This document shows, piece by piece, positions 18,610 to 56,295 of a stretch of 64,000 nt of DNA. The notes under the pieces were generated by a model. It saw only the letters and a list, made by a program, of their open reading frames with translations. It made no database searches and had not been told where the DNA came from. Origin of the DNA: Klebsiella phage 150049. Location: the sequence record OP045498.1; one strand, given 5' to 3'. Position numbers and translations under genes: made by a program. Numbering within the stretch: the stretch's first letter is position 1; the number at the start of each line of letters is the position of its first letter.

Positions 18610-18626
18610 AACAAATTCCTTTAAAT

Positions 18627-18705: not shown

Positions 18706-18707
18706 AT

Positions 18708-18872: not shown

Positions 18873-18893
18873 TTCGAAATCCTTCTATTAAAT

Positions 18894-18971: not shown

Positions 18972-18977
18972 ATTGTT

Positions 18978-19055: not shown

Positions 19056-19080
19056 AATATTCTTTGTTAACTCACTTTAT

Positions 19081-19116
19081 AAAATATATTATACAGATAT
19101 TTAAGCATAATAGCAA
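19081..19116 (-). promoter_or_regulatory. T5-type early promoter
   Basis: -10 19088..19093, -35 19111..19116 TTGCTA. Confidence 0.6.
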
Positions 19117-19135
19117 ATGAGTTTTTAATAAATTT

Positions 19136-19365
19136 ACTTATTGCGTAGGCCACCTCACGCTTCAAACGCTCTGCTGACAAAGAAGTTTGCGAGACTTCTC
19201 TTAAATGCCAGAATAGACCCGCCGATCTATCGGAACCTACTCAATAAGTAAACTTTCGTTTACCTACACCTACCTGGTCGGGAGGATTTTCAGCGACTAG
19301 AACCGGCCGGAAACTCATCGCCTTGTTTATCTAGGAGTCCGTTCTCTAGGAAGCAGAAACCTAAA
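19136..19365 (-). ncRNA. candidate stable non-coding RNA (~230 nt)
   Basis: ORF-free, GC-rich relative to flanks, upstream of promoter 19081..19116 and downstream of tRNA-Gly. Confidence 0.3.
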
Positions 19366-19367
19366 TT

Positions 19368-19441
19368 TGGTGCGGTCGGAGGGAATCGAACCCTCAACTT
19401 TTGGTTGGCAACCAAAAATTATACCTTTTAACTACGAACGC
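19368..19441 (-). tRNA. tRNA-Gly (GCC)
   Basis: anticodon arm TTTGG-TTGCCAA-CCAAA, T-arm GAGGG-TTCGATT-CCCTC. Confidence 0.65.
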
Positions 19442-19644
19442 ATAATAAGTCAATCTAGGCAGGACTTGAACCTGCTATCACTTGTGCGGATTTACGAGAA
19501 CCATTCTTTCACTCGAATCGAACGAGCTTCTACCCTCGGCAAGCTGGTGTCCCCTCTCCACCACGCTAGAATGTTTGTTAATGAATAGAGTCCGGTGTAG
19601 CAGTCCGTAAGGGTGCACCTACTGTAGCCTTTACTCTATTTGTT

Positions 19645-19721
19645 TGGTACTCCCAGAAGGACTTGAACCTTCAACCCTCCGCTTAAGAGGCGGTAGCTCT
19701 GACCAGTTGAGCTATGGAAGC
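19645..19721 (-). tRNA. tRNA-Lys (CTT)
   Basis: loop CTCTTAA, T-arm GAAGG-TTCAAGT-CCTTC. Confidence 0.5.
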
Positions 19722-19722
19722 A

Positions 19723-19956
19723 TTAAATCTCTTTTAAGAAATCTTTAGGAATAGTAAAACTAGGATAATCACCTGTTTCGTCTAATGTTACACTTGTATG
19801 CTCTATTCCAGTATATCGAGTATCATCTGAGGCTAAACCATAATCATGAAATTTCAATGAGTATACAGTTTGTCCTGCATGTTCACCTTTAATAACTAAA
19901 TATTTGCGTGTCATACTATATCCTAAATTGGCGCGACCGATGGGATTCGAACCCAC
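19723..19956 (-). CDS. hypothetical protein (77 aa)
   Basis: ORF track; abuts tRNA. Confidence 0.45.
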   Translation of the reverse strand: MGSNPIGRANLGYSMTRKYLVIKGEHAGQTVYSLKFHDYGLASDDTRYTGIEHTSVTLDETGDYPSFTIPKDFLKEI

Positions 19957-20005
19957 ATTCTCTCCCGTGACAGGGGAGTACCATTACCAAGCCAGCCCCG
20001 ATCGC
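19929..20005 (-). tRNA. tRNA-Asp (GTC)
   Basis: anticodon arm CTCCC-CTGTCAC-GGGAG, discriminator G. Confidence 0.7.
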
Positions 20006-20014
20006 ATAATTTGT

Positions 20015-20200
20015 TTACTCAGCTTTGAGTTTTTTGATAGCTTCCTCAACCTCTTTTAGAGCTTCACGACGCTCTACTTGACCTTGAAGTTCTTCAAGAA
20101 GTTCAGCTTTCAGAGCCTTAATAATATTACCACGAACCTTAATATTATTAATTAGATTATCACGATCAGCTTCTAGTCGAGCAATTGCACGAGTTGTCAT
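20015..20200 (-). CDS. small coiled-coil protein (61 aa)
   Basis: ORF track. Confidence 0.4.
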   Translation of the reverse strand: MTTRAIARLEADRDNLINNIKVRGNIIKALKAELLEELQGQVERREALKEVEEAIKKLKAE

Positions 20201-20302
20201 ATCTATTTCCTCAGTTATTAATGAAAATGGTATCTGTGACTGAATTCGATATCAGTAATGATAGCTGGTTGGCTACCGGTTTACTTAACTCTACACAGAA
20301 TA

Positions 20303-20385
20303 TGGCGGGCCGTGTAGGATTCGAACCTACGTTGTCTTTCGACATGGATTAACAGTCCACCGCCAAACCGCTTGGCTAACGACCC
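20303..20385 (-). tRNA. tRNA with Asn anticodon arm (GTT) but 13-nt variable arm and 3-bp D-stem (class-II-like body)
   Basis: GGA-CTGTTAA-TCC arm and G73 like tRNA-Asn; 83 nt. Confidence 0.5.
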
Positions 20386-20392
20386 TAAAATT

Positions 20393-20468
20393 TGGACGAC
20401 CGCATGAGATTCGAACTCACATAAGGAGGTTTTGCAGGCCTCCGCCTAAGCCATTCAGCCAACGGTCG
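20393..20468 (-). tRNA. tRNA-Cys (GCA)
   Basis: loop CTGCAAA, discriminator U, T-arm GTGAG-TTCGAAT-CTCAT. Confidence 0.65.
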
Positions 20469-20646
20469 ATTTATCTTGCTTTTCGAGATTAGTAAACTCT
20501 AGATCTTTAGAATGTCCTATAGATCTAGCATAATAGCCATCTCCAGCATCATAGCCTGACTTACCACACTCACACATCTTAAACTCTCTATAACGAGTGA
20601 AAATATGTTCAGAACCACAACACTTAAATTTAACTAACATTTTCAT
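20455..20646 (-). CDS. small zinc-ribbon protein (63 aa)
   Basis: CCGSEH..CECG; 3' end overlaps tRNA-Cys 5' end. Confidence 0.35.
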   Translation of the reverse strand: MKMLVKFKCCGSEHIFTRYREFKMCECGKSGYDAGDGYYARSIGHSKDLEFTNLEKQDKSTVG

Positions 20647-20885
20647 TTAACACGCTCCGGTAAATCTTCGAGTTTATATTGAGTAGCCACATTAGCAGCA
20701 TCTAGTAACAAACCCATATGTTTAAGAATCCTAGTGATAGCCTCGCCTTCTGCTTCTTCTACAAAAGTGCGTAGTTGAATGAAGTCAATACCACCATCCA
20801 TACCAGAGAAAATGTTAAGTAAGCGAAGCATTACCAGCTTACGTTCTTTCAGTTCTTGTTCTGTCATGTTGCTTCTCCAGTTCAA
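20643..20885 (-). CDS. hypothetical protein (80 aa)
   Basis: ORF track. Confidence 0.5.
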   Translation of the reverse strand: MNWRSNMTEQELKERKLVMLRLLNIFSGMDGGIDFIQLRTFVEEAEGEAITRILKHMGLLLDAANVATQYKLEDLPERVK

Positions 20886-20889
20886 TTTA

Positions 20890-20925
20890 TGTAATAATTA
20901 TACAGAACTTTAAGCGGTTAAGCAA
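20890..20925 (-). promoter_or_regulatory. T5-type early promoter
   Basis: -10 20897..20902, -35 20920..20925. Confidence 0.6.
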
Positions 20926-21205
20926 CTACATTTTTCAGAAATATGATGCCTTTCTTTTTCTTCTTATACTTCCACGTTAATGGATTCTGTCTATTATGAA
21001 CGCTTGAGATCTTTGTCTCGTCAAAGTTCTTCAATACCATGTAATCACAGGCCAACTGTTCTAGTGGGATGTGATCTCCGTCAAAAGCATAAACATAAGG
21101 TTGTTGACTAGCACGATAATGATAGACTTTGTTAATTCTACGTTTCAGTGACTTATCCGCACAGTAAATAAAGAAGTTTTCAGGATGCATCAGCATCTCC
21201 TTCAA
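20918..21205 (-). CDS. hypothetical protein (95 aa)
   Basis: ORF track; C-terminus overlaps promoter block. Confidence 0.45.
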   Translation of the reverse strand: MKEMLMHPENFFIYCADKSLKRRINKVYHYRASQQPYVYAFDGDHIPLEQLACDYMVLKNFDETKISSVHNRQNPLTWKYKKKKKGIIFLKNVVA

Positions 21206-21207
21206 AT

Positions 21208-21282
21208 TGGTGCACCCTGTTCGTATCGAACGAACCTCTCAAGCTCTTCAGGCAAGCGCTAATCCATCTCAGCTAAAGGTGC
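21208..21282 (-). tRNA. tRNA-Phe (GAA)
   Basis: loop CTGAAGA, T-arm GTTCG-TTCGATA-CGAAC; weak anticodon stem. Confidence 0.5.
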
Positions 21283-21288
21283 AAATAT

Positions 21289-21365
21289 TGGCAAACCTAC
21301 TAGGACTCGAACCTAGACCGTACGGTTTTGGAGACCGACATGCTGTCCAGTAACACTCTAGGAAT
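21289..21365 (-). tRNA. tRNA-Trp (CCA), acceptor stem not cleanly resolved
   Basis: anticodon arm CGGT-CTCCAAA-ACCG like E. coli Trp, G73, T-arm CTAGG-TTCGAGT-CCTAG. Confidence 0.45.
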
Positions 21366-21373
21366 GCAGAAAT

Positions 21374-21450
21374 TGGCGTCCTGTGCGGGGATCGAACCCG
21401 CAAATCCTACCTTGAAAGGGTAGTGACTTTACCAGTTTGTCTAACAGGAC
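21374..21450 (-). tRNA. tRNA-Glu (TTC)
   Basis: GTCCTGT..loop CTTTCAA..ACAGGACGCCA. Confidence 0.75.
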
Positions 21451-21457
21451 TTAAATT

Positions 21458-21548
21458 TGGTGTTGGATGATGGAGTCGAACCACCCGAGACCCTTCCGAG
21501 TCGGCAGATTTACAGTCTGCTTCGCTACCTCTACGATACTAATCCAAC
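21458..21548 (-). tRNA. tRNA-Tyr (GTA), class II
   Basis: 91 nt, anticodon arm GCAGA-CTGTAAA-TCTGC, perfect acceptor. Confidence 0.75.
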
Positions 21549-21605
21549 ATATTTAGAAATATTCAAATACTAGTTTAAACACTTTTAAATATGTTTTCCA
21601 AATTA

Positions 21606-21666
21606 GATAACTATTATATCAAGTTTTGAAGGACTGAGCAAGTCAAATTTTAAAGAACTTGCTCAG
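21606..21666 (-). promoter_or_regulatory. variant early promoter (-10 21613..21618, -35 TTGCTC 21636..21641) overlapped by a perfect 10-bp inverted repeat CTGAGCAAGT / ACTTGCTCAG
   Basis: IR arms 21634..21643 and 21657..21666. Confidence 0.4.
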
Positions 21667-21677
21667 TGCTATATCAG

Positions 21678-21953
21678 TTACTCGAAGCTAGGAGTGACAC
21701 TCAGTTTGAATGGAAGCTCGAACACTTCTTCATAATCATCATTGAGCGTAATTACACGACCTTCTAGCTTAGTCATGGTGATTTCGATATCAGCCTTTGC
21801 ATCAGGAGCCATACCAGCTTCCACACATTTAGCTTTGACTTCCGGCAGAAGTTCTACATCGTAGAAATAAAGCCATTCAATCTCACCTTCCCAGCCACCC
21901 CAGGATTTACAAACAGCACTTTCAACACCAGTTGCAGTAACACGTTTTGACAT
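21678..21953 (-). CDS. hypothetical protein (91 aa)
   Basis: ORF track. Confidence 0.5.
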   Translation of the reverse strand: MSKRVTATGVESAVCKSWGGWEGEIEWLYFYDVELLPEVKAKCVEAGMAPDAKADIEITMTKLEGRVITLNDDYEEVFELPFKLSVTPSFE

Positions 21954-21976
21954 TCGTTAACTCCTTCATCAATTTA

Positions 21977-22013
21977 TATAACTATTATAGCAGAAATCTT
22001 AAGTAAAAAGCAA
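21977..22013 (-). promoter_or_regulatory. T5-type early promoter
   Basis: -10 21984..21989, -35 22008..22013. Confidence 0.6.
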
Positions 22014-22043
22014 GTACATTTTTAAAATTTCTGCTTGGAGGAG

Positions 22044-22250
22044 TTAAACTCCTGATTCTTCTGCCAGATCAAGCCCAACCAATGTGATTGCCATAATAGC
22101 CGCGCCATGTTCTTTCTCTCCTAGCTCTTTGGCTTGAGTGAGAATATTGAGGAATTGCTTCTGAAAATCTGCAACTTCTTCTGTCATGCCTGCTTCAGCA
22201 ATAATTCCTTTCAGCATAAAGCGTTGTGCCGTAATTTCAGGATTAGCCAT
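22044..22250 (-). CDS. hypothetical protein (68 aa)
   Basis: ORF track. Confidence 0.45.
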   Translation of the reverse strand: MANPEITAQRFMLKGIIAEAGMTEEVADFQKQFLNILTQAKELGEKEHGAAIMAITLVGLDLAEESGV

Positions 22251-22401
22251 TTATTATCTCCAGTTATTTAGAATGTAAGCCAAACTTAGGATCATAGCGA
22301 TCGTAAGTCGTACCATTAGTTGAAGCCTTGATGCTATGAAAACGACAGTACATAAATTTACGTAGTGCTTTCTTAATAGCTTTCATTTTATTTCCTTAAT
22401 T

Positions 22402-22478
22402 TGGTAGGGGTGGTGGGATTCGAACCCACAAAACCTGAATTTTAAGTCCAGTACCTATGCCAATTCGATTACACCCCC
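22402..22478 (-). tRNA. tRNA-Leu (TAA) with short variable arm (class-I-like)
   Basis: loop CTTAAAA, A73, T-arm GTGGG-TTCGAAT-CCCAC. Confidence 0.5.
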
Positions 22479-22486
22479 ATGTAATC

Positions 22487-22840
22487 TTAGCGAATCTCTA
22501 AACCCTGGAAATATCGAGGGAATGGAGAGCCAACTTCAAAATTGATGCCCCAGTTAAGTTCAACGAGTTCAGATTTATTAAGATCTAGGCCATTACCTTC
22601 AAAGATATAGCCGTAAACCGCAGGGAACATAGCTGCTAGATCTTCCATATCGGAATGAGCATTGTGTTCTTCACGGAACTGCTCAAACTCTTCAAAGAAC
22701 TTTTCTAGGAAAAACTCAGGTACGATGAACGTTACCACATCAGTAGAATCATCGGTACGATACACCGTAGCTTGGAACAAGCCAACACCTAAAAGGTTTA
22801 TTGCCGGAGTAGTAAAAATATCCATCTTAGCCTCTCTCAA
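22487..22840 (-). CDS. hypothetical protein (117 aa)
   Basis: ORF track. Confidence 0.5.
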   Translation of the reverse strand: MREAKMDIFTTPAINLLGVGLFQATVYRTDDSTDVVTFIVPEFFLEKFFEEFEQFREEHNAHSDMEDLAAMFPAVYGYIFEGNGLDLNKSELVELNWGINFEVGSPFPRYFQGLEIR

Positions 22841-23012
22841 TGTCTAGACAAATTGCATATTCAGGGTTGATACCAGTACCTTTACATGTAGGACATTCCC
22901 ATTCTCTACAGAAAATATCCCCAGGCTCTGCATCATCCTGCCTACCACCACCATGACAGTCCTTACACCGACATTCTTCTAATGCTTTCTTCATTTCATA
23001 GAATCTAGACAT
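22827..23012 (-). CDS. small zinc-finger protein (61 aa)
   Basis: CKDC..CPTC. Confidence 0.45.
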   Translation of the reverse strand: MSRFYEMKKALEECRCKDCHGGGRQDDAEPGDIFCREWECPTCKGTGINPEYAICLDIERG

Positions 23013-23038
23013 ATAGTCTCCTAGTTAATTGGTGGCTC

Positions 23039-23116
23039 CCGGAGGATTCGAACCTACCTACCTTTCGCTTATGAGGCGACGGCTCATACCAAATGAGCTT
23101 GAGAACCAAATTTGGA
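23039..23116 (-). tRNA. tRNA with CAT anticodon (third CAT tRNA)
   Basis: loop CTCATAA, D-arm GCTC-ATTTGGTAT-GAGC. Confidence 0.55.
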
Positions 23117-23121
23117 GGAAG

Positions 23122-23215
23122 ATGCCAGACTCGAACTGGCACACCGTGTCTCCACAGCTACTGGCTGTTTAGCAAACAGCTCCCTTACCTTTAGGGTTAA
23201 TCTTCCAAATTTATG
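23122..23215 (-). tRNA. tRNA-Ser (GCT), class II
   Basis: 94 nt, anticodon arm GCTGT-TTGCTAA-ACAGC, perfect acceptor. Confidence 0.7.
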
Positions 23216-23257: not shown

Positions 23258-23554
23258 TTACTGAACATTGCACTGATATACCTGTTTGATACGTGTCACT
23301 GACTTCTTAGTTGGGTTGATAGAAGAACCCTGCCACCAACGTGACTCTGAGCTAAGAACAGCACTAGGAACAGCCTGCTCTTTTGGCAGAACAATATCAA
23401 AACACTGTTCACCCATATTATCTTTAATGTGTGACCAAATATCCAAAGTAAATCGTTCTAACTTATTACAAACCTGAACTTGACAAAGTTCCTGTTGCGG
23501 AGCAGCAAATACAGAAGTAGATACTAGAGTCAATGCAAGTACAATGCGTTTCAT
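23258..23554 (-). CDS. secreted protein with signal peptide (98 aa)
   Basis: leader LALTLVSTSVFAAP. Confidence 0.5.
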   Translation of the reverse strand: MKRIVLALTLVSTSVFAAPQQELCQVQVCNKLERFTLDIWSHIKDNMGEQCFDIVLPKEQAVPSAVLSSESRWWQGSSINPTKKSVTRIKQVYQCNVQ

Positions 23555-23577
23555 GTTTGATTCCTCTCTCGAATTTA

Positions 23578-23613
23578 TAAATATATTATACAGAAATTTT
23601 CTATATTAAGCAA
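23578..23613 (-). promoter_or_regulatory. T5-type early promoter
   Basis: -10 23585..23590, -35 23608..23613. Confidence 0.6.
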
Positions 23614-23630: not shown

Positions 23631-23653
23631 ATAGCCCTCTAAGCGAGGGCTAT
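23631..23653 (-). terminator. hairpin ATAGCCCTC..GAGGGCTAT downstream of pnuC, weak T-run
   Basis: 8-bp stem. Confidence 0.3.
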
Positions 23654-23660: not shown

Positions 23661-24353
23661 TTATTTGTTAACGCGTACAAAGTATCCTTTATAAGCTCCA
23701 AGAATAGAGTTGCCTAAGAATACTAGCCACATTGCTAGGATTGCGTAAGATGCACCTGTAGATTGAGCAGTTACAAGCCAAATGTACACAGTACCAATGT
23801 TAATAGCAATCCAAATCAGCCATTGTTCAGCATATTGTTTGACCATAAGCCACATAGCAATCACACTACCAACCGCAGTAAATGCGTCAAGCATTGGGAA
23901 TGGATCAGCGGTAGTAGCAAGGAAGCTGCCATATCCTAAAGTAGCTACTGCTAGAACCCCTAGAGTCAGCAAAGCTTGAGCTTTGCTCAGAATCTTAGTT
24001 GGAACATCTGGCAGATTACTTGGCTTATTTTTATGCCATAAGTACATTCCATAAAACTGCATAGGAACATAGTATAGCAGGTTTAGTGCAGCGTTACCAT
24101 AAAGATCTGCATTTAAAGCCGTAATACCATAGGTAAGAACTCCAACTAAGCCCCAAATATAGTTGGAAACACGTCCTTTTGCAACCAGAATAACACAAAC
24201 CACGTTGGTTATTGCAGTAGCCCAATCTAGAGCTGTACCATTATAGTTTGCTAAACTAATAAAGGCGACTGCTATAAACAGCCACAGATATTCCAAAGGT
24301 TTCCAGTTTTTAAAGTCATTTACAAGATAGTTAGTCATATTAAAACTCTCCAA
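23661..24353 (-). CDS. pnuC: nicotinamide riboside transporter PnuC (230 aa)
   Basis: 6-7 TM segments, size and hydropathy of PnuC; adjacent to nadR-like gene. Confidence 0.7.
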   Translation of the reverse strand: MESFNMTNYLVNDFKNWKPLEYLWLFIAVAFISLANYNGTALDWATAITNVVCVILVAKGRVSNYIWGLVGVLTYGITALNADLYGNAALNLLYYVPMQFYGMYLWHKNKPSNLPDVPTKILSKAQALLTLGVLAVATLGYGSFLATTADPFPMLDAFTAVGSVIAMWLMVKQYAEQWLIWIAINIGTVYIWLVTAQSTGASYAILAMWLVFLGNSILGAYKGYFVRVNK

Positions 24354-25446
24354 CGTTAAAGTGATGAATCAGCCAGTCTACTGCGTTTACTGCTTCGTCC
24401 ATACGAACCTTATAGTCCGGGGAGTCAATATATACAGTACGCCCTTCTGGGAACTGATTAGGAAATTCTTTCTTCATCTGCTCGAACAGTTCAGAAGTAA
24501 TTGAACGATCGGAGTTAATACGTAAACCATCATCTACCCACTTAACAGTAGGTGCTAAAACTATAACTAAATCATAATGCTCTTCTTTAGCAATAGCTGT
24601 TACAACCGGATTTTTACGATGCTCGTAAAGTCTGTGATAAAACTCTGTAATGAAAGCATTTGTGTCTACAAACATGATCTTATTTGCAGTACGTTCTGCC
24701 TCAAACTCTAGCTCTTTGTGCCTGAATGCAATTTTATTATAGTCCTCGCTAGTCAGGAGTTCTTCATTACCAACTAGATCAACTTCGCAGTAAGTACGAC
24801 CATATTCTTCTACCCACGAAGTATTATATAATTTCGCAAGGTACTTTGTTAAAGTTGTTTTGCCGGAGCTTTCAGTACCAATGATAACAACCTTACGCAC
24901 GTAGTCTTTACGAACTACGCTAGGTAGGAATTCCCAATACTTCATAAGATCATTACGAATCATAGTAGCTGAGATTGGAACACGAGTCCGATCAGAGTCT
25001 ACAATATAATGTCCAAACTTCGGCAGATATTTCTTATATTCTGCATCATAGTCTATTTCGCTAGAGAAAATGGTAATTTCAGGCAAATGGCCATAATTAT
25101 CATTCAGGATTCTAGCATATTCTGGCCAACCGTTTGGGTACTCTGGAATATCATCTTCAATAATGTACTCTACCGAAACATGCTCGATATCAGCATAAGT
25201 TTGCTCAAGCCAACGCAGTCGATTCTTTAACTGCAAGACTTCCTGATCACGTGTGTTTTGTTTATCCAGCCAGCGATTATCATGACTAACTACAACAATA
25301 ACTCGCTCACACATAGTTGCTGCTGTATTAATTAAGTTAATATGACCACGCGTTAATGGTGCGAACTTACCAATTACTAGACCAGTCTTAATCATATTTG
25401 ATTCCTCTCTCAAATTTATAAATATATTATACAGAGAATTTAGCAT
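24340..25446 (-). CDS. nadR: NadR-like bifunctional NMN adenylyltransferase / ribosylnicotinamide kinase (368 aa)
   Basis: nucleotidyltransferase (H/T)xGH motif GKFAPLTRGH; Walker A GTESSGKTT in C-terminal kinase half. Confidence 0.7.
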   Translation of the reverse strand: MLNSLYNIFINLREESNMIKTGLVIGKFAPLTRGHINLINTAATMCERVIVVVSHDNRWLDKQNTRDQEVLQLKNRLRWLEQTYADIEHVSVEYIIEDDIPEYPNGWPEYARILNDNYGHLPEITIFSSEIDYDAEYKKYLPKFGHYIVDSDRTRVPISATMIRNDLMKYWEFLPSVVRKDYVRKVVIIGTESSGKTTLTKYLAKLYNTSWVEEYGRTYCEVDLVGNEELLTSEDYNKIAFRHKELEFEAERTANKIMFVDTNAFITEFYHRLYEHRKNPVVTAIAKEEHYDLVIVLAPTVKWVDDGLRINSDRSITSELFEQMKKEFPNQFPEGRTVYIDSPDYKVRMDEAVNAVDWLIHHFNVGEF

Positions 25447-25454
25447 TCAAGCAA
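25419..25454 (-). promoter_or_regulatory. T5-type early promoter
   Basis: -10 25426..25431, -35 25449..25454. Confidence 0.6.
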
Positions 25455-25651: not shown

Positions 25652-26644
25652 GTGTCAAAAATGACAGAAGAAGCAACTAAGAAACCTGAGACCGTCAGTG
25701 AAGTCGCAGCAGAACTGAGACGTCATGAGGAATCAGACAAACATAAGTGGGAGAAGGTCAAGGCCTACGAAAAGAAACATCGTGATCACGATGATGACGA
25801 TGAAGATGACGACCATGAGGGCTGTCATAAACATAGGAAACATAAAATGCAAGAACCAGTAAACGTATTCACTAGCGGCTTCCCAGGTCTGATGGGTGGT
25901 TACCCAGCAGTAGCAAATGGTGCTTTCGGCGGTGAAGGTATGGGTCTATTCGGAGCCATCCTGATTGGTGCTCTATTAACAGGCGGATTCGGTGGTTTCG
26001 GTGGTTTCGGACGTGGTGCTGGTGTTGCCGCTGAGGGAACTGCTGTGGATGCTATCCTATCTAACCAGGATACTGCAAGTATTCTAGCTGCAATCAACAC
26101 TGCTCGTACCGAAGCGAATCAAGGTACTGGTGCTGTTCTGAGCGCTGTTAATGGTGTAGGTGCTGCTCAAGCTTCTAGCACTCAACAGATTCTGACTACT
26201 GTGTATGGTACTGGTGCTAACCTGTCCAACCAGATCTGTCAGGAAACTCGTAACGTTATTCAGGGTCAGTTCGATCTTTCTCGCCAGATGGATCAAGCTT
26301 TCGCTGCTAACCAGATCGCTCGTGCACAAGACAAGTTTGACTCTGCCCAGATTGCTTTCCAGCAGTCTCTTCAGACTAACAACCAGTTTGCCGCTGTTCA
26401 GGCTCAGATGTGTGCTAACCAGAACGCTATCGAACGTCAGCTTGCTGAGTGCTGCTGCGAACTTCAGACTGCGATTGCTGGTGTAACTACTGCGCGTATC
26501 CAAGACGAACTGAATGAATGCCGTCTGCGTGAAGCAATCGCTGCAGGTAGCGGTGCAAACGGTCAGGTAATCAATCAAATCGCTGTAAGCCTGGGTGCAA
26601 TTACTCAGACTCTAGCAGCTCTACAGGCTAAAGTACCAGCCTAA
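25652..26644 (+). CDS. low-complexity protein (330 aa): acidic/His-rich N-terminus, Gly-rich hydrophobic segment, long A/Q/N-rich helical tail with CCC cluster
   Basis: strong RBS AGGAGG; high-expression-type codon usage; opposite to flanking genes. Confidence 0.6.
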   Translation: MSKMTEEATKKPETVSEVAAELRRHEESDKHKWEKVKAYEKKHRDHDDDDEDDDHEGCHKHRKHKMQEPVNVFTSGFPGLMGGYPAVANGAFGGEGMGLFGAILIGALLTGGFGGFGGFGRGAGVAAEGTAVDAILSNQDTASILAAINTARTEANQGTGAVLSAVNGVGAAQASSTQQILTTVYGTGANLSNQICQETRNVIQGQFDLSRQMDQAFAANQIARAQDKFDSAQIAFQQSLQTNNQFAAVQAQMCANQNAIERQLAECCCELQTAIAGVTTARIQDELNECRLREAIAAGSGANGQVINQIAVSLGAITQTLAALQAKVPA

Positions 26645-26666
26645 TCTTTAAGGGGAGGAGCCCATT

Positions 26667-27083
26667 ATGAGTAAATATGGTTTTGTGAACAACGGATTTA
26701 ATCAACCAATGGGCTCTCAGCAGCCCATTCCGGGTCTGGATAACCCTTACCTACAACAGTTGCAACAGCGTTTAGCAGAAGCGCAACAGATGCAGCAGCA
26801 ACTCCAGCAAAACCCTGGAAGTGTGAGTCCTATGCAAATGATGCAGCAAATGAGCGGGCAGTCGCAAATGCCTCAACAAATGCAGCAACAGGTGCCTCAG
26901 CAGCAAGTTCAGCAACAAACCCAACAACCGCAGGTTTCTGCGGAAGGACAGGCAGTACTAGCCCTTTTCGAAGACTTCGCAAAGACAGAGGATGGGAAAC
27001 AGCTTGTATCACTTATGGGTAAGTTTAATAGCTTCTGCCAAAGCCAAGTTGCAAAAGCTCAAAATGGCGGTAATAACTCCTAA
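26667..27083 (+). CDS. glutamine-rich (prion-like) protein (138 aa)
   Basis: QQLQQ repeats; RBS GGGGAGGAG. Confidence 0.55.
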   Translation: MSKYGFVNNGFNQPMGSQQPIPGLDNPYLQQLQQRLAEAQQMQQQLQQNPGSVSPMQMMQQMSGQSQMPQQMQQQVPQQQVQQQTQQPQVSAEGQAVLALFEDFAKTEDGKQLVSLMGKFNSFCQSQVAKAQNGGNNS

Positions 27084-27403: not shown

Positions 27404-28348
27404 TTACTTGTTACGCATATCCATGATCATTTGACCATCGTAGCCAGTACCGACAACAGTCTGTGGTACACCACCTTGGTATTTTTCAGCACGAAGCATT
27501 TCAACTTCCAGCTGCTTCCAACGAATCATTTCAGGAGTAATGGTACGTTGCAGAGCGGCGTTAGCTTCAGCTTCTTTCTTAGCTGCGTACAGTTTAGCAT
27601 CTGCGTCACGTTCGTTAGCTACTGCCATGTTTTCACGAGCGGAACGATCTGCCTCAGCTTGCTTAACTTTCTGCTGTGCTTCTTGTTCAACACGAGCCAG
27701 TTCAGCTTTTGCAGCGTTAACTTGTTCTTCACGAACTTTGGTGTTCTGTACCTGTTCCATGATTACCGGTGGCAGAGTAATATCCTGAAGGAATACTTGC
27801 TTAACGGTGTAACCATAAGGACGCGCATACTCTTCTACTTCTTGCTGAATAGCGGTTTGCAGTTGAGCCTGAATCTTAGCGTCGAACAGATCTTGTGCTT
27901 TTGGTACAGACTTACCAAACTCACGAATCGTAGACAGCATCTTCTCTTCAACGTACTTGTTCAGAGCTTGATCCTGAGTACCTGCGTTAACACGGTTCAT
28001 AGGAGCTTTAGCACCATCAAACTGCAACATAACGGTAATGTCAACAGTAGACTTAAACTTATCCTGGCTAGGAACCTGAAGTTTATCCAGTTTCATGGAA
28101 ATATCTTTCGTACTAAAAGTATCAAAAGAAGCAAATGGGTTAACAATATGGAAGCCTGGCAGTACAGGGTTCGGGCTAACTTTACCCAGGAAGGTTTGAG
28201 TCTTAACAGTACCATCCTGAACAACTGTGTAGGAATTGAGAGCCAGAATAAGAGCGCCAAGACCAACTACAGCACCAACACCCCAACGTTTAATAGTACG
28301 AATTACTTTTTGATCGGAAGTCAGTTCTTTAGTGTTTTTAGTAAACAT
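27404..28348 (-). CDS. SPFH/band-7 (stomatin/prohibitin/HflK-like) membrane protein (314 aa)
   Basis: N-terminal TM, SPFH core then long E/A/Q/K-rich coiled coil. Confidence 0.7.
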   Translation of the reverse strand: MFTKNTKELTSDQKVIRTIKRWGVGAVVGLGALILALNSYTVVQDGTVKTQTFLGKVSPNPVLPGFHIVNPFASFDTFSTKDISMKLDKLQVPSQDKFKSTVDITVMLQFDGAKAPMNRVNAGTQDQALNKYVEEKMLSTIREFGKSVPKAQDLFDAKIQAQLQTAIQQEVEEYARPYGYTVKQVFLQDITLPPVIMEQVQNTKVREEQVNAAKAELARVEQEAQQKVKQAEADRSARENMAVANERDADAKLYAAKKEAEANAALQRTITPEMIRWKQLEVEMLRAEKYQGGVPQTVVGTGYDGQMIMDMRNK

Positions 28349-28586: not shown

Positions 28587-28661
28587 TGGCCGAGGTGACA
28601 GGATTCGAACCTGCATAAAGGAATTTAGAAGACTCCTGCCTATCCCTTAGACTACACCCCG
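28587..28661 (-). tRNA. tRNA-Arg (TCT)
   Basis: anticodon arm GGAGT-CTTCTAA-ATTCC, T-arm GCAGG-TTCGAAT-CCTGT, CCA encoded. Confidence 0.65.
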
Positions 28662-45540: not shown

Positions 45541-45703
45541 TTTAGAAAATATGCTTATGGAGCAGTGGAATGCTGGGTATAATGCTGGAGTAGCTACCTG
45601 TATTGCTGGTTTGGATATGCTTATTAAGCAAGAGAAGGTTCGCCCAGAAGAAGCAATTCTGCTCCAAAATATCATCGAAGGATTCAAGCAAGGAATCGTA
45701 TAA
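45509..45703 (+). CDS. hypothetical protein (64 aa from MDFLNQNLK)
   Basis: RBS GGAGGA 8 nt upstream; longer ORF-track start rejected. Confidence 0.4.
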   Translation: MDFLNQNLKSNLENMLMEQWNAGYNAGVATCIAGLDMLIKQEKVRPEEAILLQNIIEGFKQGIV

Positions 45704-46554
45704 TGCGTAGACTAATCGTTGTTAGTGGTGCAGGTTTGAGTGTAGATAGTGGTGTTCGTGCTTTCCGTACTGATACTGCTAGTGGGAAATCCTTGTGGGA
45801 TGAGTACGATCTAGAGGAAGTATGTAGCTTGCCTAACTTTGAAGCTGGCTTCCGTCGCTTCTGTGGTGAAGATGATCCTAACTACTTCAGTGCTCGTTTC
45901 CCTGGCATTGATAAAGATGGTAACGATCTGTATCTCAAGACTCATGAGTTCTACAACATGCGTCGTCAGGAATTACAGACTGTTGAGCCTAACATTGCCC
46001 ATCTGCGAATTGCAGAATGGTTCCAGCGTTATGGTGCGGATAGCGTGAAGAACTTCACTACTAACGTTGATGACCTTCTGGAACGTGCTGGTATCCCTCG
46101 TGATGAAATCATTCACGCTCACGGGTACTTGAAAGAGGTGATCTATCGTCAGGGTCGCAACCAAATCATCGAAGATGTTGGGTATACTGCGATTGCCCCT
46201 GAGGATTACGAATGGGTAAAACCAAACGTAACATTCTTTGGTGAGACGGCTCCGTGGTATATGGGTCAGATTAACCTGTTTGATACACTTACTAGCAATG
46301 ATATGGTTATTGTAGTAGGTTGTAGCAACCAAGTAATCGACTTCAACTGGGAGCTATTTCCTGCTGTATGTCGTGGAACTAAGATGATGGTTGTTAACCC
46401 ACAAGTTCGTTATGACGAACAGCTTGAGTATGAGAAACGTGGTGTTACTGTATGGCGTGCTGGAGCTGCCGAAGTTTTTGGTAATAAACACTTTATTGAT
46501 CAAGTTGAAGCTTTTATGGAGGGAAATATTTATGTCCCAGAAAAGCATGTGTGA
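45703..46554 (+). CDS. Sir2-family NAD-dependent deacylase/ADP-ribosyltransferase-like protein (283 aa)
   Basis: N-terminal Rossmann motif VVSGAGLSVDSGVRAFR typical of sirtuins. Confidence 0.7.
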   Translation: MRRLIVVSGAGLSVDSGVRAFRTDTASGKSLWDEYDLEEVCSLPNFEAGFRRFCGEDDPNYFSARFPGIDKDGNDLYLKTHEFYNMRRQELQTVEPNIAHLRIAEWFQRYGADSVKNFTTNVDDLLERAGIPRDEIIHAHGYLKEVIYRQGRNQIIEDVGYTAIAPEDYEWVKPNVTFFGETAPWYMGQINLFDTLTSNDMVIVVGCSNQVIDFNWELFPAVCRGTKMMVVNPQVRYDEQLEYEKRGVTVWRAGAAEVFGNKHFIDQVEAFMEGNIYVPEKHV

Positions 46555-46714: not shown

Positions 46715-46880
46715 GGGTATCTGGAAAGGTCTAGTATGGTTTGTCAACCTAATCGGTATGATTACCATTTATTCTCTGTTCCTATCTGTTATGTGGGGTA
46801 AAGGTGAATTGAAGGTTCCAGTTCCTTTTACTGATGAAGTTAAAGTCTGGACGTGGGATGCTACTGGTGGAAATAAGTAA
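46695..46880 (+). CDS. small membrane protein (61 aa)
   Basis: RBS AAGGAGGGAG; TM WFVNLIGMITIYSLFL. Confidence 0.4.
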   Translation: MVKKIFKGIWKGLVWFVNLIGMITIYSLFLSVMWGKGELKVPVPFTDEVKVWTWDATGGNK

Positions 46881-47373
46881 TACTCCTGTGATTTTCCTGG
46901 ATATTGATGGGGTGCTCAATTCGAGCATCTCTCACCATCATGCTCCAGATAGTGAGAAGCTATTCTTTGGTGGTGATTGGGTTTACAAGCCATTACTCCA
47001 GGCTTTTCAGAACTTTCTTAAGCCATCCCCAATAATGATTGTTGGGGTATCTTCATGGTTTTCTGTACGAAACGAGATGGAGAACGTCCAGATTATGACC
47101 GGACTCGGTTTGATCGATCGTTTTCTTGGTACTACAGATTTTACTGGTGGCGGTTTATCTCGTGGTAATTCTGTCTTACGTTTCGTCGAAAAACATAAGC
47201 TTAAGCATTGGTGCGTCCTAGATGATGCTGGTGCTATGATGTATCAATTTCCTACTGTTATTGTAAATGGCAGGACTGGAATAAACCTTCAAGATTTAAA
47301 CGCTATCAGCTATATGCTGGAGTTTAGTCCAGATCTTGAAATGTGTAAGGCTCTTCAGAAACTTAAGGTATAA
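46834..47373 (+). CDS. HAD-superfamily hydrolase (179 aa; start may be 46858)
   Basis: motif I FLDIDGVL. Confidence 0.6.
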   Translation: MKLKSGRGMLLVEISNTPVIFLDIDGVLNSSISHHHAPDSEKLFFGGDWVYKPLLQAFQNFLKPSPIMIVGVSSWFSVRNEMENVQIMTGLGLIDRFLGTTDFTGGGLSRGNSVLRFVEKHKLKHWCVLDDAGAMMYQFPTVIVNGRTGINLQDLNAISYMLEFSPDLEMCKALQKLKV

Positions 47374-54130: not shown

Positions 54131-54349
54131 TTGATGAGAGGATCAATTATGGCAATGACAATAACACTTCCAAAGATTCAAGCAAAACTTAATTTGCTCT
54201 CCATAGCAAGAATCAATTACCAGGATAGTATCGGCACTCCAAACCAGAAAGCGTACAAAGATGCGTGGTTGAAAGAAGCTGCTGATTTAGCTGGTATGGC
54301 TGCTCAGTATAATAAAGAACTCAAAATGGAAATAGCAGACGATGAATAA
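54131..54349 (+). CDS. hypothetical protein (72 aa)
   Basis: ORF track. Confidence 0.45.
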   Translation: MMRGSIMAMTITLPKIQAKLNLLSIARINYQDSIGTPNQKAYKDAWLKEAADLAGMAAQYNKELKMEIADDE

Positions 54350-55313
54350 TGTAAAAGACTTTATCAAACGTTGTCAAGAAGCGTACTACCAGGGAATGAG
54401 TCTTATTTCCGATGAAGAATATGATCGTCTGATTAAAAGATTCCCACTAGAGGAAGAAATCGGACCGAAAGGTGATATCCCTCATTTGTATCGTATGTAT
54501 TCTTTACAGAAAGTCTATTACGATCGTGGTGATAAAGCTCCATTTAACCCATTAGGTCAGGTTGAAACTGATAAGTTAGATGGTTGTGCGATTTCTCTAT
54601 TATATATTAATGGTGAATTTGTTCAAGCGTTAACTCGTGGTAACGGTATTCTAGGGAATGATGTAACGCATAATGTTAAAATGCTGAACATTCCCAAAAC
54701 TATTTCCCAAAAAGTACCAACTCAAATCACTGGTGAAGTTCTCATTACTAAAGAAGTAGAGAACAAACGTAACTACGCTTCGGGTGCTATTAACCTGAAA
54801 GATAGTGATGATTTCATGCAACGTATTGGTGAAGGTGGTTTAATCTTCGTTGCATATGGTATCCAGTGTTCAGCGGAAACAGTCGGTATTACAGAAGCCT
54901 ATTTAAAAGATATGCTTTGGCTAGAGAATGAGAACTTCTTGACAGTTGTTAATGTTCGTTCCTTTTTTAAATGGATTCCGACGGACGGTAAAGTTGTTCG
55001 TATTAACGACAACAATAAATTCTTCCGTGAAGGTTGGACTAATAAATTTCCTCGTGGTGCATTTGCTATTAAAGAGGATGAAGAAGGCGAAATTACCACA
55101 CTTGTTAAAGTTGAATGGCAAGTAGGGGCTTCTGGTAAAGTAACTCCAGTTGGTTATTTCGAGCCGGTGATTATTGATGATGCCACAATTGTTAAAGCAA
55201 CTCTTAATAACGTTGATTATATTAACGCTCTCGATTTAGAGATCGGTTGCCAGATTCGAGTGATTCGTGCTGGTGGTGTAATCCCTTGTATAGTAGAGCG
55301 AGTATACGACTAA
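54342..55313 (+). CDS. ligA: NAD-dependent DNA ligase, N-terminal (adenylation/OB) subunit (323 aa)
   Basis: KxDG adenylation motif KLDGCAISL; LigA-type Ia/NTase architecture. Confidence 0.8.
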   Translation: MNNVKDFIKRCQEAYYQGMSLISDEEYDRLIKRFPLEEEIGPKGDIPHLYRMYSLQKVYYDRGDKAPFNPLGQVETDKLDGCAISLLYINGEFVQALTRGNGILGNDVTHNVKMLNIPKTISQKVPTQITGEVLITKEVENKRNYASGAINLKDSDDFMQRIGEGGLIFVAYGIQCSAETVGITEAYLKDMLWLENENFLTVVNVRSFFKWIPTDGKVVRINDNNKFFREGWTNKFPRGAFAIKEDEEGEITTLVKVEWQVGASGKVTPVGYFEPVIIDDATIVKATLNNVDYINALDLEIGCQIRVIRAGGVIPCIVERVYD

Positions 55314-55363
55314 TTCGTAACCCTTTGCTACCCGTTTACCATGTCGGAATTATAAAGTGGTTA

Positions 55364-55400
55364 TTGACATTTTCGCCGCTTAGGTATATACTATTATCAT
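55364..55400 (+). promoter_or_regulatory. sigma70 promoter TTGACA-17-TATACT inside ligase split
   Basis: -35 55364..55369; shares TTGACATTTTCGC with 25571. Confidence 0.5.
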
Positions 55401-55456
55401 TCAGTTGAGGGATAGAAAGTTATGGCGAGGGTAAGCAAAGTTAGTTAAAATTGTAG

Positions 55457-55493
55457 TTGCTAAATGCTTAAATACTTGCTATAATATTTATAT
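55457..55493 (+). promoter_or_regulatory. T5-type early promoter (TTGCTA-17-TATAAT)
   Basis: -35 55457..55462, -10 55480..55485. Confidence 0.55.
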
Positions 55494-55512
55494 AAATTGA
55501 TAAGGAAGAAAT

Positions 55513-56295
55513 TTGATGAAAATCGAAATTCCAACACAATGTCCCTCTTGTGGTTCTAAGCTAGATCTTGTCAACGGGCAATTATTCTGTAGGAATAAGT
55601 CCAACTGTCCAGCGCAATCAAGTAAGTTAATCGAGAACTTCTGCACAAAAATGAAGTTAAAGGGCTTTGGCCCGAAAACTATTGAGAAGCTGGAGCTGAC
55701 TAAGATCTCAGAACTGTTTTACCTGACCGAAGAAGATTTGGTCGGAGCTGTGGGTAGCAAGGTTGCCGCTAAATTGATTAGCGAGTTAAATACTAAGGTT
55801 CGCGGAGACATTAACTTTGGTTCAGTTCTCGGTTCTTTAGGAATTCCTCTTATTGGAGAGGTTGCAGCAAAGAAACTGTCCCAAAATTGCACTAGCTTCC
55901 ACGATGTGAAGGCTGACGGCAAGGCTGGAGAAAATTACAAAACCTGGCTAAATTCCCCACAAGGCAAGGATGTTATTGAATTACCGTGGAAATTCTCAAC
56001 GGGTATTCGAGGTGCTAAAGCGGATATCATCATTACAGATGATTTAGTTGCCCAGCCAAATGGAATCACGGTCTGTATTACCGGATCTTTGCAAGATTTT
56101 GCAAATCGAACGGATGCAACAAACTATTTAGAAAGTCTAGGATATACGGTTAAGAAGTCCGTTACCAAAGACGTCAAATACCTAATCTGTGAGGATGAAT
56201 CAAAACGTTCTTCCTCATCTTATAAGAAAGCCGAAACGAATGGGATAGAAATCCTGTCGATTAAAGAACTATTGGAGAAAAATAATAATGTCTAA
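55513..56295 (+). CDS. ligB: NAD-dependent DNA ligase, C-terminal (Zn-finger/HhH/BRCT) subunit (260 aa)
   Basis: CPSCGSKL..C..C zinc finger, HhH GIPLIGEVAAKKL, BRCT-like tail. Confidence 0.75.
   Translation: MMKIEIPTQCPSCGSKLDLVNGQLFCRNKSNCPAQSSKLIENFCTKMKLKGFGPKTIEKLELTKISELFYLTEEDLVGAVGSKVAAKLISELNTKVRGDINFGSVLGSLGIPLIGEVAAKKLSQNCTSFHDVKADGKAGENYKTWLNSPQGKDVIELPWKFSTGIRGAKADIIITDDLVAQPNGITVCITGSLQDFANRTDATNYLESLGYTVKKSVTKDVKYLICEDESKRSSSSYKKAETNGIEILSIKELLEKNNNV

What the first reader, a model, noticed from the sequence alone, without database searches (positions are those of the whole stretch)
23661..25446. NAD+ salvage pair PnuC/NadR, plus a Sir2-like gene (45703..46554) and a NAD-dependent split ligase (54342..56295)
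A PnuC nicotinamide riboside importer and a bifunctional NadR (NMN adenylyltransferase HxGH motif plus ribosylnicotinamide kinase P-loop) form a complete nicotinamide-riboside-to-NAD+ route. The same genome carries a sirtuin-fold protein and a NAD-dependent (LigA-type) DNA ligase split into two genes. The phage therefore both consumes NAD+ (ligase, possibly Sir2) and can rebuild it. In the context of NAD+-depleting abortive-infection systems (Thoeris, DSR, SIR2/TIR effectors), a phage NAD+ reconstitution route is a plausible counter-defence. It also insulates the NAD-dependent ligase from host NAD+ fluctuations.
Basis: partly seen in the sequence, partly recalled or inferred. Interest (0 to 1): 0.65.

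Follow-up and report, generated by a model that had tools for sequence, protein, structure and literature searches.

The report
Phage NAD+ rebuilding operon (NARP3)
This T5-like Salmonella/E. coli phage carries a two-gene operon that imports nicotinamide riboside and turns it into NAD+; it is a 98%-identical copy of the "NARP3" counter-defence system characterised in 2026, so the reading is right but not new.

Summary
On the minus strand, a NadR-like gene (24340-25395) and a PnuC gene (23661-24338) form a compact operon. It has a T5-type early promoter, a 1-nt gene junction and a terminator hairpin. The Sir2-like gene and the two-gene LigA-type ligase are also at the stated coordinates.

The window is an Epseptimavirus (T5-like, Demerecviridae), 99.5% identical to Salmonella phage JNwz02 over the region. 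The pair is 98% identical in protein to Bas30_86/Bas30_87 of phage TrudiRoth. That pair was published as "NARP3" (Sci Adv, Aug 2026, PMC13464706) with crystal structures 9X6F/9X6H. All 20 residues named there as binding or functional are conserved here. That study showed NR import, NR-to-NMN-to-NAD+ conversion, and rescue from Sir2-HerA and DSR1 NAD+ depletion. Osterman et al. had already predicted the operon in 2024.

The Sir2 + "Swiss-army-knife" HAD pair matches a phage RNA-repair neighbourhood predicted in 2022. The split ligase has a solved two-chain homologue (9HU3).

- The true starts are ATG 25395 and ATG 24338.
- The NMNAT motif is TRGH, not HxGH.
- Sir2 and the ligase also occur in T5-like phages that lack the operon, so there is no obligate linkage.

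Verdict: already known, low interest.

The parts
25426..25454 (-). Sigma-70-type T5 early promoter of the operon. -35 TTGCTT is at 25454-25449, followed by a 17-nt spacer and a TG-extended -10 TATAAT at 25431-25426. It is the orthologue of annotated T5 promoter P15a.
   Evidence: Sequence and coordinates. The promoter/5'UTR block from the -10 element to the RBS recurs at 23561-23592, 32583-32614 and 51863-51894, against 0 expected by chance. The same promoter precedes bas32_0085 in IrisVonRoten. In T5, annotated promoter P15a sits in the syntenic position before T5.076. The sequence is identical in TrudiRoth.
25402..25411 (-). Ribosome-binding region GAGAGAGGAA, 6 nt upstream of the NadR ATG.
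   Evidence: An RBS is annotated at the same place in phage Sw2.
24340..25395 (-). NadR-like bifunctional enzyme, 351 aa. The N-terminal NMN adenylyltransferase domain carries TRGH and ISATMIR. The C-terminal ribosylnicotinamide kinase domain carries Walker A GTESSGKT. There is no HTH domain. It is the orthologue of Bas30_86.
   Evidence: PDB 9x6f 6e-239; 1LW7 H. influenzae NadR 4e-55. 345/351 identical to Bas30_86. All 17 residues named in PMC13464706 are conserved. Against TrudiRoth, 85 differing codons are synonymous and 6 non-synonymous.
23661..24338 (-). PnuC-family nicotinamide riboside transporter, 225 aa. It is the orthologue of Bas30_87. Its ATG lies one base after the NadR stop (TAATATG), consistent with translational coupling.
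   Evidence: 220/225 identical to Bas30_87. NR-binding residues N45, Q94 and N180 are conserved. 38 differing codons are synonymous and 5 non-synonymous.
23631..23653 (-). Terminator-like hairpin 8 nt after the PnuC stop codon (ATAGCCCTC-GCTTA-GAGGGCTAT).
   Evidence: RNA fold -18 kcal/mol, z = -5.1, and 0 of 200 shuffles fold as well. A terminator is annotated at the same place in Sw2. The sequence is identical in TrudiRoth. The T-run is weak (TTATACAG...), so function is inferred.
23258..23554 (-). Neighbouring 98-aa gene with a signal peptide and four invariant Cys, driven by a second copy of the same promoter. It travels with the operon in T5-like phages. It is not shown to be part of the pathway.
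   Evidence: phrog_6894, unknown function. Promoter copy. Distribution and adjacency. AF2 pLDDT 75 with no PDB fold match.
45703..46554 (+). Sir2-like (sirtuin-fold) protein, 283 aa, closest to CobB. GAGLS, TTNVDD and the catalytic HG histidine are present. The zinc-ribbon cysteines are absent.
   Evidence: Pfam SIR2 1.3e-21. PDB 1S5P CobB 1.7e-16, with alignment. phrog_2162 2.5e-107. No PADLOC defence model matches.
46834..47373 (+). HAD phosphatase of the 'Swiss army knife' RNA-repair type, the conserved neighbour of the Sir2-like gene.
   Evidence: Pfam HAD_SAK_2 4.4e-19. This neighbourhood is described for T5-like phage SP15 in PMC9503650, section 3.7.3.
54342..55313 (+). LigA-type DNA ligase subunit A, 323 aa: short Ia-like N-terminus, adenylation domain with KLDG, and OB fold.
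   Evidence: Pfam hits. phrog_3359. PDB 9hu3_A 'DNA ligase (NAD(+))' 1.9e-106.
55516..56295 (+). LigA-type DNA ligase subunit B, 259 aa: Cys4 zinc finger, HhH and BRCT. It has its own promoter-like sequence in the 199-nt gap between the two genes.
   Evidence: Pfam BRCT and HHH_2. PDB 9hu3_B 'DNA ligase subunit B' 2.2e-79, and E. coli LigA 2OWO residues 402-529. Gap sequence.

Best explanation
The locus is a functional orthologue of the phage NAD+ reconstitution pathway NARP3.

Proposed mechanism:
1. Host RNA polymerase transcribes the operon early in infection from a strong T5-type promoter.
2. The PnuC-like membrane protein lets nicotinamide riboside (NR) into the cytoplasm.
3. The kinase domain of the HTH-less NadR-like enzyme phosphorylates NR to NMN, which also traps it inside the cell.
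4. The adenylyltransferase domain joins NMN to the AMP moiety of ATP to give NAD+.

This refills the NAD+ pool when host abortive-infection systems (Sir2-HerA, DSR1 and probably other NADases) hydrolyse it, so the phage can keep replicating.

What is shown here: gene identity, operon anatomy, conservation of every published functional residue, and purifying selection. What is shown for the 98%-identical orthologue, in heterologous assays: transport, enzymology, structure and counter-defence. What is inferred: activity of this copy, early timing, and benefit in the native phage.
For: - Family assignments for both genes.
- NadR-like protein matches PDB 9x6f/9x6h (Bas30_86) at 6e-239.
- Protein identity is 345/351 and 220/225 to Bas30_86 and Bas30_87 of TrudiRoth MZ501109.
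- Promoter, RBS, gene junction and terminator are identical to TrudiRoth.
- All 17 Bas30_86 residues and all 3 Bas30_87 residues named as binding or functional in PMC13464706 are conserved.
- Codon differences are 85 synonymous to 6 non-synonymous, and 38 to 5.
- PMC13464706 reports NR binding (Kd about 0.66 uM), NR-to-NAD+ conversion, restoration of NAD+/NADH, and 10^3-10^4-fold rescue of T7 and lambda plaques on Sir2-HerA hosts. It also reports an effect on DSR1.
- The operon sits in a replaceable accessory slot, which fits a counter-defence module. T5 and IrisVonRoten carry a Toprim-like gene in this slot. In IrisVonRoten it follows the same promoter sequence, and in T5 it follows annotated promoter P15a.
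- It is present at 90% identity or more in about 200 phage records.
Against: - No experiment exists on this phage. The authors of PMC13464706 state that NARP3 was not tested in its native phage.
- The benefit depends on NR being available outside the cell.
- The first residue of the (T/H)xGH motif is Thr rather than His. The characterised Bas30_86 has the same TRGH, so this is not a defect.
- The terminator lacks a clean T-run.
Confidence: 0.88

Rival explanations
1. The operon is a general auxiliary metabolic module rather than a counter-defence. On this view its main job is to keep NAD+ high for the phage's own NAD+-consuming enzymes (the LigA-type ligase and the Sir2-like protein) during a normal infection, whether or not the host carries a defence system.
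For: The same genome encodes a NAD+-dependent-type ligase and a sirtuin-fold protein. The native-phage role is untested. The operon has a strong early promoter, as expected for replication-support genes.
Against: T5 and IrisVonRoten lack the operon at the syntenic slot. The Sir2-like gene nevertheless occurs in Tequintavirus relatives such as HildyBeyeler and in 978 phage records. The Sir2-to-ligase region matches 568 records. So these enzymes do not require the operon. The patchy, cassette-like distribution is typical of conflict genes. Heterologous data show a specific rescue from NADase defences.
Confidence: 0.08
2. The pair is mis-assigned. Either the transporter moves a different substrate (such as NMN, thiamine or another riboside), or the NadR-like protein acts mainly as a regulator or a single-activity enzyme, so no complete NR-to-NAD+ route exists.
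For: PnuC-family members with other specificities exist (established knowledge, not tested here). Public annotations are inconsistent ('NadR transcriptional regulator', 'NMN transporter').
Against: There is no HTH domain: the match starts at profile position 54 of NF005988. Both catalytic domains and all published functional residues are present. NR binding and both enzymatic steps were measured on the 98%-identical orthologue.
Confidence: 0.02
3. The functional unit has three genes. On this view the adjacent 98-aa secreted Cys4 protein (23258-23554) works with PnuC/NadR, for example by acting in the periplasm on NR supply or on a host envelope factor.
For: The gene has a second copy of the operon's promoter and travels with the operon in T5-like phages. 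It is present at 90% identity or more in 195 records, against about 200 for NadR and PnuC. Homologues at 50-66% identity lie within about 1 kb of NadR in two other lineages, each with a different gene order. These are the Eneladus-like jumbo phages and the roughly 145-kb Vequintavirinae-like phages.
Against: The closest non-Epseptimavirus NadR/PnuC operons lack it within 4 kb. Bas30_86/87 alone suffice in E. coli. No fold or family hint was found.
Confidence: 0.02

Closest known systems
NARP3 (Bas30_86/Bas30_87 of Escherichia phage TrudiRoth; Yan et al., Sci Adv 2026, PMC13464706; PDB 9X6F/9X6H)
   Same: Same two genes, order, junction, promoter and terminator. Protein identity is 98% for both genes, and all published functional residues are conserved.
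   Different: There are 6 and 5 amino-acid substitutions, none at named residues. The upstream neighbourhood differs: this window has two extra plus-strand genes (25652-27083) between the operon promoter and the SPFH gene, which TrudiRoth lacks.
Bacterial PnuC/NadR nicotinamide riboside salvage (H. influenzae NadR PDB 1LW7; N. mucosa PnuC PDB 4QTN; E. coli/Salmonella NadR)
   Same: Same chemistry and folds: a PnuC transporter, then RNK plus NMNAT domains in one polypeptide.
   Different: The phage enzyme lacks the HTH repressor domain of enterobacterial NadR. It has TRGH where H. influenzae NadR has HTGH. The genes are fused into one operon, whereas E. coli pnuC and nadR are unlinked (PMC13464706 discussion).
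NARP1 (Adps + Namat) and NARP2 (NAMPT + NMNAT, e.g. KVP40-type) phage NAD+ reconstitution pathways (Osterman et al.; bioRxiv 10.1101/2024.02.11.579819)
   Same: Same strategy: rebuild NAD+ to defeat NAD+-depleting immunity. That paper already predicted the NadR-PnuC operon of BASEL phages as a further pathway.
   Different: The substrates and enzymes differ. NARP1 recycles ADP-ribose plus nicotinamide, and NARP2 uses nicotinamide plus PRPP. This operon needs imported NR.
Phage sirtuin + Swiss-army-knife HAD neighbourhood (Iyer, Burroughs, Anantharaman, Aravind 2022, PMC9503650, section 3.7.3, typified by T5-like phage SP15)
   Same: The Sir2-like gene is followed 280 nt later by a HAD_SAK_2 phosphatase gene, as described there.
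   Different: The proposed role (KptA-like removal of RNA 2'-phosphate using NAD+) is a computational prediction and untested. It is not linked to the salvage operon.
Two-subunit NAD+-type DNA ligase of T5-like phages (PDB 9HU3/9I5I, chains 'DNA ligase (NAD(+))' and 'DNA ligase subunit B')
   Same: It is split at the same point, between the OB fold and the zinc finger. Both halves match strongly.
   Different: This copy is diverged from the solved pair (alignments). The tool does not give the source organism of the PDB entry. NAD+ dependence of this copy is inferred from domain content.

Membership tests
NARP3 (phage NR-based NAD+ reconstitution operon) | PnuC-type NR transporter with NR-coordinating residues N45, Q94 and N180 | tested here: met
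   Pfam and TIGRFAM PnuC hits. 98% identical to Bas30_87. All three residues present at the same numbering.
NARP3 (phage NR-based NAD+ reconstitution operon) | HTH-less NadR-like enzyme with both RNK and NMNAT domains and the published site-1 and site-2 residues | tested here: met
   Domain hits. PDB 9x6f 6e-239. 17 of 17 named residues conserved.
NARP3 (phage NR-based NAD+ reconstitution operon) | The two genes are adjacent, co-oriented and co-transcribed | tested here: met
   1-nt spacing (TAATATG), with a single promoter upstream and a hairpin downstream. Co-transcription itself is inferred.
NARP3 (phage NR-based NAD+ reconstitution operon) | Restores NAD+ and phage growth in cells expressing Sir2-HerA or DSR1 | not testable with these tools
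   Shown only for the orthologue expressed from plasmids with T7 and lambda. Not tested in any native phage.
Trifunctional enterobacterial NadR | N-terminal helix-turn-helix DNA-binding (repressor) domain | tested here: not met
   The match to NF005988 starts at profile position 54 of 411, and the protein starts 3 residues before the NMNAT core. It works like NadR enzymatically but is not a regulator.
Nucleotidyltransferase (HIGH) superfamily NMNAT | (T/H)xGH and ISxTxxR signature motifs | tested here: met
TRGH at residues 14-17 and ISATMIR at residues 141-147 of the 351-aa protein.
Sirtuin (Sir2) family | Rossmann NAD+-binding motif GAGxS, the (T/Q)N(I/V)D motif and the catalytic His | tested here: met
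   GAGLS, TTNVDD and HAHG align with GAGIS, TQNIDN and HMHG of E. coli CobB 1S5P.
Sirtuin (Sir2) family | Cys4 zinc-binding module | tested here: not met
   There is no cysteine between the catalytic His and the FGE motif. The CobB cysteines align to non-Cys residues or gaps. It has the sirtuin fold but an atypical small domain, and its activity is unknown.
Defence-type SIR2 NADase effectors (ThsA, DSR, SIR2-HerA) | Match to defence-system SIR2 models, or fusion or adjacency to SLOG, HerA or similar partners | tested here: not met
   No PADLOC model matches at E<=0.01. The neighbour is a HAD_SAK_2 phosphatase.
LigA-type (NAD+-dependent) DNA ligase | Adenylation domain with KxDG, OB fold, Zn finger, HhH and BRCT, plus an N-terminal Ia NAD+-specificity element | tested here: met
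   All domains were found, but on two polypeptides. KLDG is at residues 78-81. The N-terminus AYYQGMSLISDEEYDRL resembles the Ia motif of E. coli LigA (comparison from memory of Sriskanda & Shuman 2002, cited in PMC9503650). NAD+ use was not assayed.

The most novel reading that the evidence does not exclude
The most novel reading still open has two parts. First, in its native T5-like phage the operon may do more than published. Second, the co-travelling 98-aa secreted Cys4 protein (23258-23554) may be an unrecognised third component that acts in the periplasm.

The protein is driven by a duplicate of the same early promoter. It is found next to NadR in three unrelated phage lineages. It could act, for instance, on NR supply or on an envelope factor. 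The native role of NARP3, counter-defence versus feeding the phage's own ligase and sirtuin, also remains untested.
Probability: 0.08. Interest if true: 0.45.

Novelty: already known. Interest (0 to 1): 0.12.

Why it matters
NAD+ depletion is a common bacterial abortive-infection strategy, and phage pathways that rebuild NAD+ decide which phages can infect such hosts. That matters for phage therapy design. This locus adds no new principle: it is a near-identical copy of the published NARP3 system.

Its remaining value is practical. It shows that about 200 sequenced Epseptimavirus-type phages carry the same operon in a swappable slot behind the equivalent of T5 promoter P15a. These are natural systems in which the still-missing native-phage deletion experiment could be done.

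Tried and rejected
1. Riboswitch or other RNA control of the operon. An Rfam gathering scan of the whole window gave 29 tRNA-family matches and no NAD+ or pnuC motif.

2. Sir2-like gene as a hijacked defence NADase. No PADLOC model matched. It resembles CobB-class sirtuins and sits next to a SAK-HAD gene.

3. Obligate linkage of the operon with Sir2 and the ligase. Rejected on distribution.

4. Third-gene hypothesis for the 98-aa secreted protein.
- It is adjacent to NadR in three lineages.
- It is solitary in loci from at least seven other contig groups.
- It is absent next to the nearest outgroup NadR-PnuC operons.
- The AF2 model (pLDDT 75) has no PDB fold match at E<=0.001.
- It is kept only as a low-probability lead.

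6. Two literature searches for a paper on the split T5-type ligase structure found nothing relevant. Only the PDB entry names are cited.

7. The simple terminator scanner did not flag the post-pnuC hairpin because the T-run is weak. The hairpin was supported by folding instead.
Full report
**What is in the sequence**

The stated interval 23661-25446 holds two minus-strand ORFs.

The downstream ORF is a PnuC-family transporter:
- Pfam NMN_transporter 4.6e-43 and TIGR01528 1e-34.
- phrog_1880 2.4e-73.
- PDB 4QTN, N. mucosa PnuC, 3.3e-32.

The upstream ORF is a NadR-type bifunctional enzyme:
- AAA_28 1.2e-31 plus CTP_transf_like 3.6e-07.
- NF005988 NadR 3e-77, aligned to profile positions 54-407 of 411, so the N-terminal HTH is missing.
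- PDB 1LW7, H. influenzae NadR, 4.4e-55.

The true starts are probably ATG 25395 (MIKTG..., 351 aa) and ATG 24338 (MTNYLV..., 225 aa), not the longest-ORF starts. These are the starts used in curated relatives, in the TrudiRoth record and in the crystallised construct. The NadR stop and the PnuC start are one base apart (TAATATG).

The nucleotidyltransferase motif is TRGH, not HxGH. The ISATMIR motif and the kinase P-loop GTESSGKT are present.

**Operon anatomy**

Upstream of the NadR ATG lie these elements:
- -35 TTGCTT at 25454-25449.
- A 17-nt spacer.
- A TG-extended -10 TATAAT at 25431-25426.
- The RBS GAGAGAGGAA at 25402-25411.

The block from the -10 element to the RBS occurs four times in the window, against zero expected by chance. 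One copy lies in front of the next gene downstream, at 23561-23592.

In T5 itself, the syntenic position carries annotated promoter P15a. In IrisVonRoten the same promoter sequence is present. From memory, the block also closely resembles the classic T5 early promoter P_N25; that comparison was not tested here.

Eight bases after the PnuC stop there is a 9-bp G+C-rich hairpin (23631-23653). It folds at -18 kcal/mol with z = -5.1. A terminator is annotated at that place in phage Sw2.

An Rfam scan found no riboswitch, only tRNA-family matches.

**Where the window comes from**

The region is 99.5% identical to Salmonella phage JNwz02. It matches hundreds of Demerecviridae/Markadamsvirinae genomes, mostly annotated Epseptimavirus. 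The operon sits at the edge of the large tRNA cluster of the early region.

**Identity with a characterised system**

The NadR-like protein matches PDB 9x6f/9x6h at 6e-239. These are the structures of Bas30_86 from Escherichia phage TrudiRoth, published as part of "NARP3" (Yan et al., Sci Adv, 12 Aug 2026, PMC13464706).

I fetched TrudiRoth (MZ501109) and compared the pair directly:
- NadR-like protein: 345/351 identical. PnuC: 220/225 identical.
- The promoter, RBS, gene junction and terminator are base-for-base the same.
- All 17 Bas30_86 residues named in the paper are conserved: K10, F11, S37, E80, P84, G89, F110, S112, D115, V139, I141, K163, D164, R167, K168, E230 and D275.
- All three NR-coordinating residues of Bas30_87 are conserved: N45, Q94 and N180.
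- Nucleotide identity is only 91-93%, with 85 synonymous versus 6 non-synonymous differing codons in NadR, and 38 versus 5 in PnuC. This indicates purifying selection.

**What the paper established for the orthologue**

- Bas30_87 is a trimeric NR-binding transporter.
- Bas30_86 converts NR to NMN and then to NAD+.
- Co-expressing both genes, but neither alone, restores NAD+/NADH depleted by Sir2-HerA from E. coli or A. baumannii. It rescues T7 and lambda plaquing by 10^3-10^4-fold, and it also counteracts DSR1.
- The authors state that the system was not tested in its native phage.

Two earlier papers had already pointed at this system. Osterman et al. predicted that the NadR-PnuC operon of BASEL phages is a further NAD+ reconstitution pathway (bioRxiv 10.1101/2024.02.11.579819). 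Iyer et al. 2022 listed NadR among phage NAD+-synthesis enzymes that counter NADase effectors (PMC9503650).

**Distribution**

- NadR-like proteins at 90% identity or more occur in about 204 phage records, and PnuC in about 204.
- More distant NadR-PnuC pairs occur in Siatvirus, Aeromonas Shenzhenvirus, Mydovirus, jumbo phages and others.
- The operon is an accessory cassette. In T5 (NC_005859) and IrisVonRoten (Bas32), both Tequintavirus, the syntenic slot holds a 172-aa Toprim-like gene (T5.076). In IrisVonRoten it follows the same promoter sequence, and in T5 it follows annotated promoter P15a. Homology with the window resumes exactly at the start codon (window 25392).

**The other genes named in the finding**

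The Sir2-like protein (45703-46554):
- It is a sirtuin-fold protein closest to E. coli CobB (1S5P, 1.7e-16).
- GAGLS, TTNVDD and the catalytic HG histidine are conserved. There are no zinc-ribbon cysteines.
- It matches no PADLOC defence model.
- It is followed by a HAD_SAK_2 phosphatase gene at 46834-47373. This is the "sirtuin + Swiss-army-knife HAD" neighbourhood that Iyer et al. describe for T5-like phage SP15. They predict it acts in RNA end repair in a KptA-like manner.
- Homologues occur in 978 phage records, including Tequintavirus such as HildyBeyeler. It is therefore not tied to the salvage operon.

The ligase:
- It is split between the OB fold (subunit A, 54342-55313) and the Zn finger/HhH/BRCT part (subunit B, ATG 55516-56295).
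- A promoter-like sequence lies in the 199-nt gap between the genes.
- Both halves match the two chains of PDB 9HU3/9I5I, at 1.9e-106 and 2.2e-79.
- Hundreds of records annotate them as NAD-dependent ligase subunits A and B.

**Side observation followed up**

The gene just downstream of the operon (23258-23554) encodes a 98-aa protein with a signal peptide and four invariant cysteines.
- It is driven by a duplicate of the operon's promoter.
- It co-travels with the operon in T5-like phages, at 90% identity or more in 195 records.
- Homologues at 50-66% identity lie within about 1 kb of NadR in two other lineages, with different gene orders. These are the Eneladus-like jumbo phages and the roughly 145-kb Vequintavirinae-like phages.
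- However, it is solitary in loci from at least seven other contig groups.
- It is also missing next to the closest outgroup NadR-PnuC operons.
- The family is compact, about 95-110 aa and 46% identity or more in 75 clusters, with no Pfam domain and no source name beyond "hypothetical" or "uncharacterized".
- An AlphaFold model (pLDDT 75; one helix plus four strands after the signal peptide) has no significant PDB fold match.

I treat a functional link as a low-probability lead.

**Verdict**

The system is already known (NARP3), down to a crystal structure of a 98%-identical enzyme.

The remaining open points are:
- the native-phage phenotype;
- the activity of the Zn-less sirtuin;
- the possible role of the small secreted neighbour.

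Interest is low.

Noticed in passing
window 23258-23554 (-); homologues in L005, L008, L009, L014, L017, L019-L023, L030: A 98-aa secreted protein with four invariant Cys and the motif SESRWYQGSSINPTKKSVTRV. It is 50-66% identical across very different phage lineages. It lies next to NadR(/PnuC) in three lineages and is solitary in loci from at least seven other contig groups. No family or fold match was found.
   Followed up: partly
window 23561-23592, 25402-25433, 32583-32614 (-) and 51863-51894 (+): A repeated T5 early-promoter/5'UTR block (TGTATAATATATTTATAAATTnGAGAGAGGAA). Two copies are identical and flank the NARP3 operon. The same promoter drives a different cargo gene (Toprim-like T5.076/bas32_0085) in IrisVonRoten, and annotated promoter P15a occupies the syntenic position in T5. 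This suggests cassette exchange immediately downstream of a conserved promoter and RBS.
   Followed up: partly
window 25652-26644 and 26667-27083 (+): Two divergently transcribed genes of unknown function (phrog_8119, phrog_7894). One is a 330-aa protein with an acidic/His-rich N-terminus, a Gly-rich hydrophobic stretch and a Q/A-rich tail. The other is a 138-aa Q-rich protein. The region has raised GC (0.47 against about 0.40). Both genes are present in T5 (T5.077/078) but absent from TrudiRoth at this position.
   Followed up: no
window 27404-28348 (-): An SPFH/Band-7 membrane protein (Pfam 2.9e-19; annotated 'lipoprotein' in T5, T5.080). It lies close to the NARP3 operon and is directly upstream of it in TrudiRoth. 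A Band_7 gene also lies near a solitary homologue of the 98-aa protein in metagenomic contig L033.
   Followed up: no
window 13966-23206 and 28590-28661 (-): A large cluster of 29 tRNA-family matches on the minus strand, interspersed with small ORFs. This is typical of the T5 early region.
   Followed up: no
window 55314-55515 (+): The 199-nt gap between the two ligase genes contains two promoter-like elements (TTGACA-17-TATACT, and TTGCTA...TATAAT with the T5-style downstream block). Subunit B therefore appears to have its own promoter. No intron or homing-endonuclease remnant was detected by Rfam.
   Followed up: partly
L009 (Klebsiella phage vB_Kpn_K45PH128C2, OY978796) 3599-4642: The public annotation 'tRNA nucleotidyltransferase' (marked pseudogene, and the annotated frame contains stops) actually covers a NadR-like gene. 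It is 36% identical to the window protein at 6e-59.
   Followed up: partly
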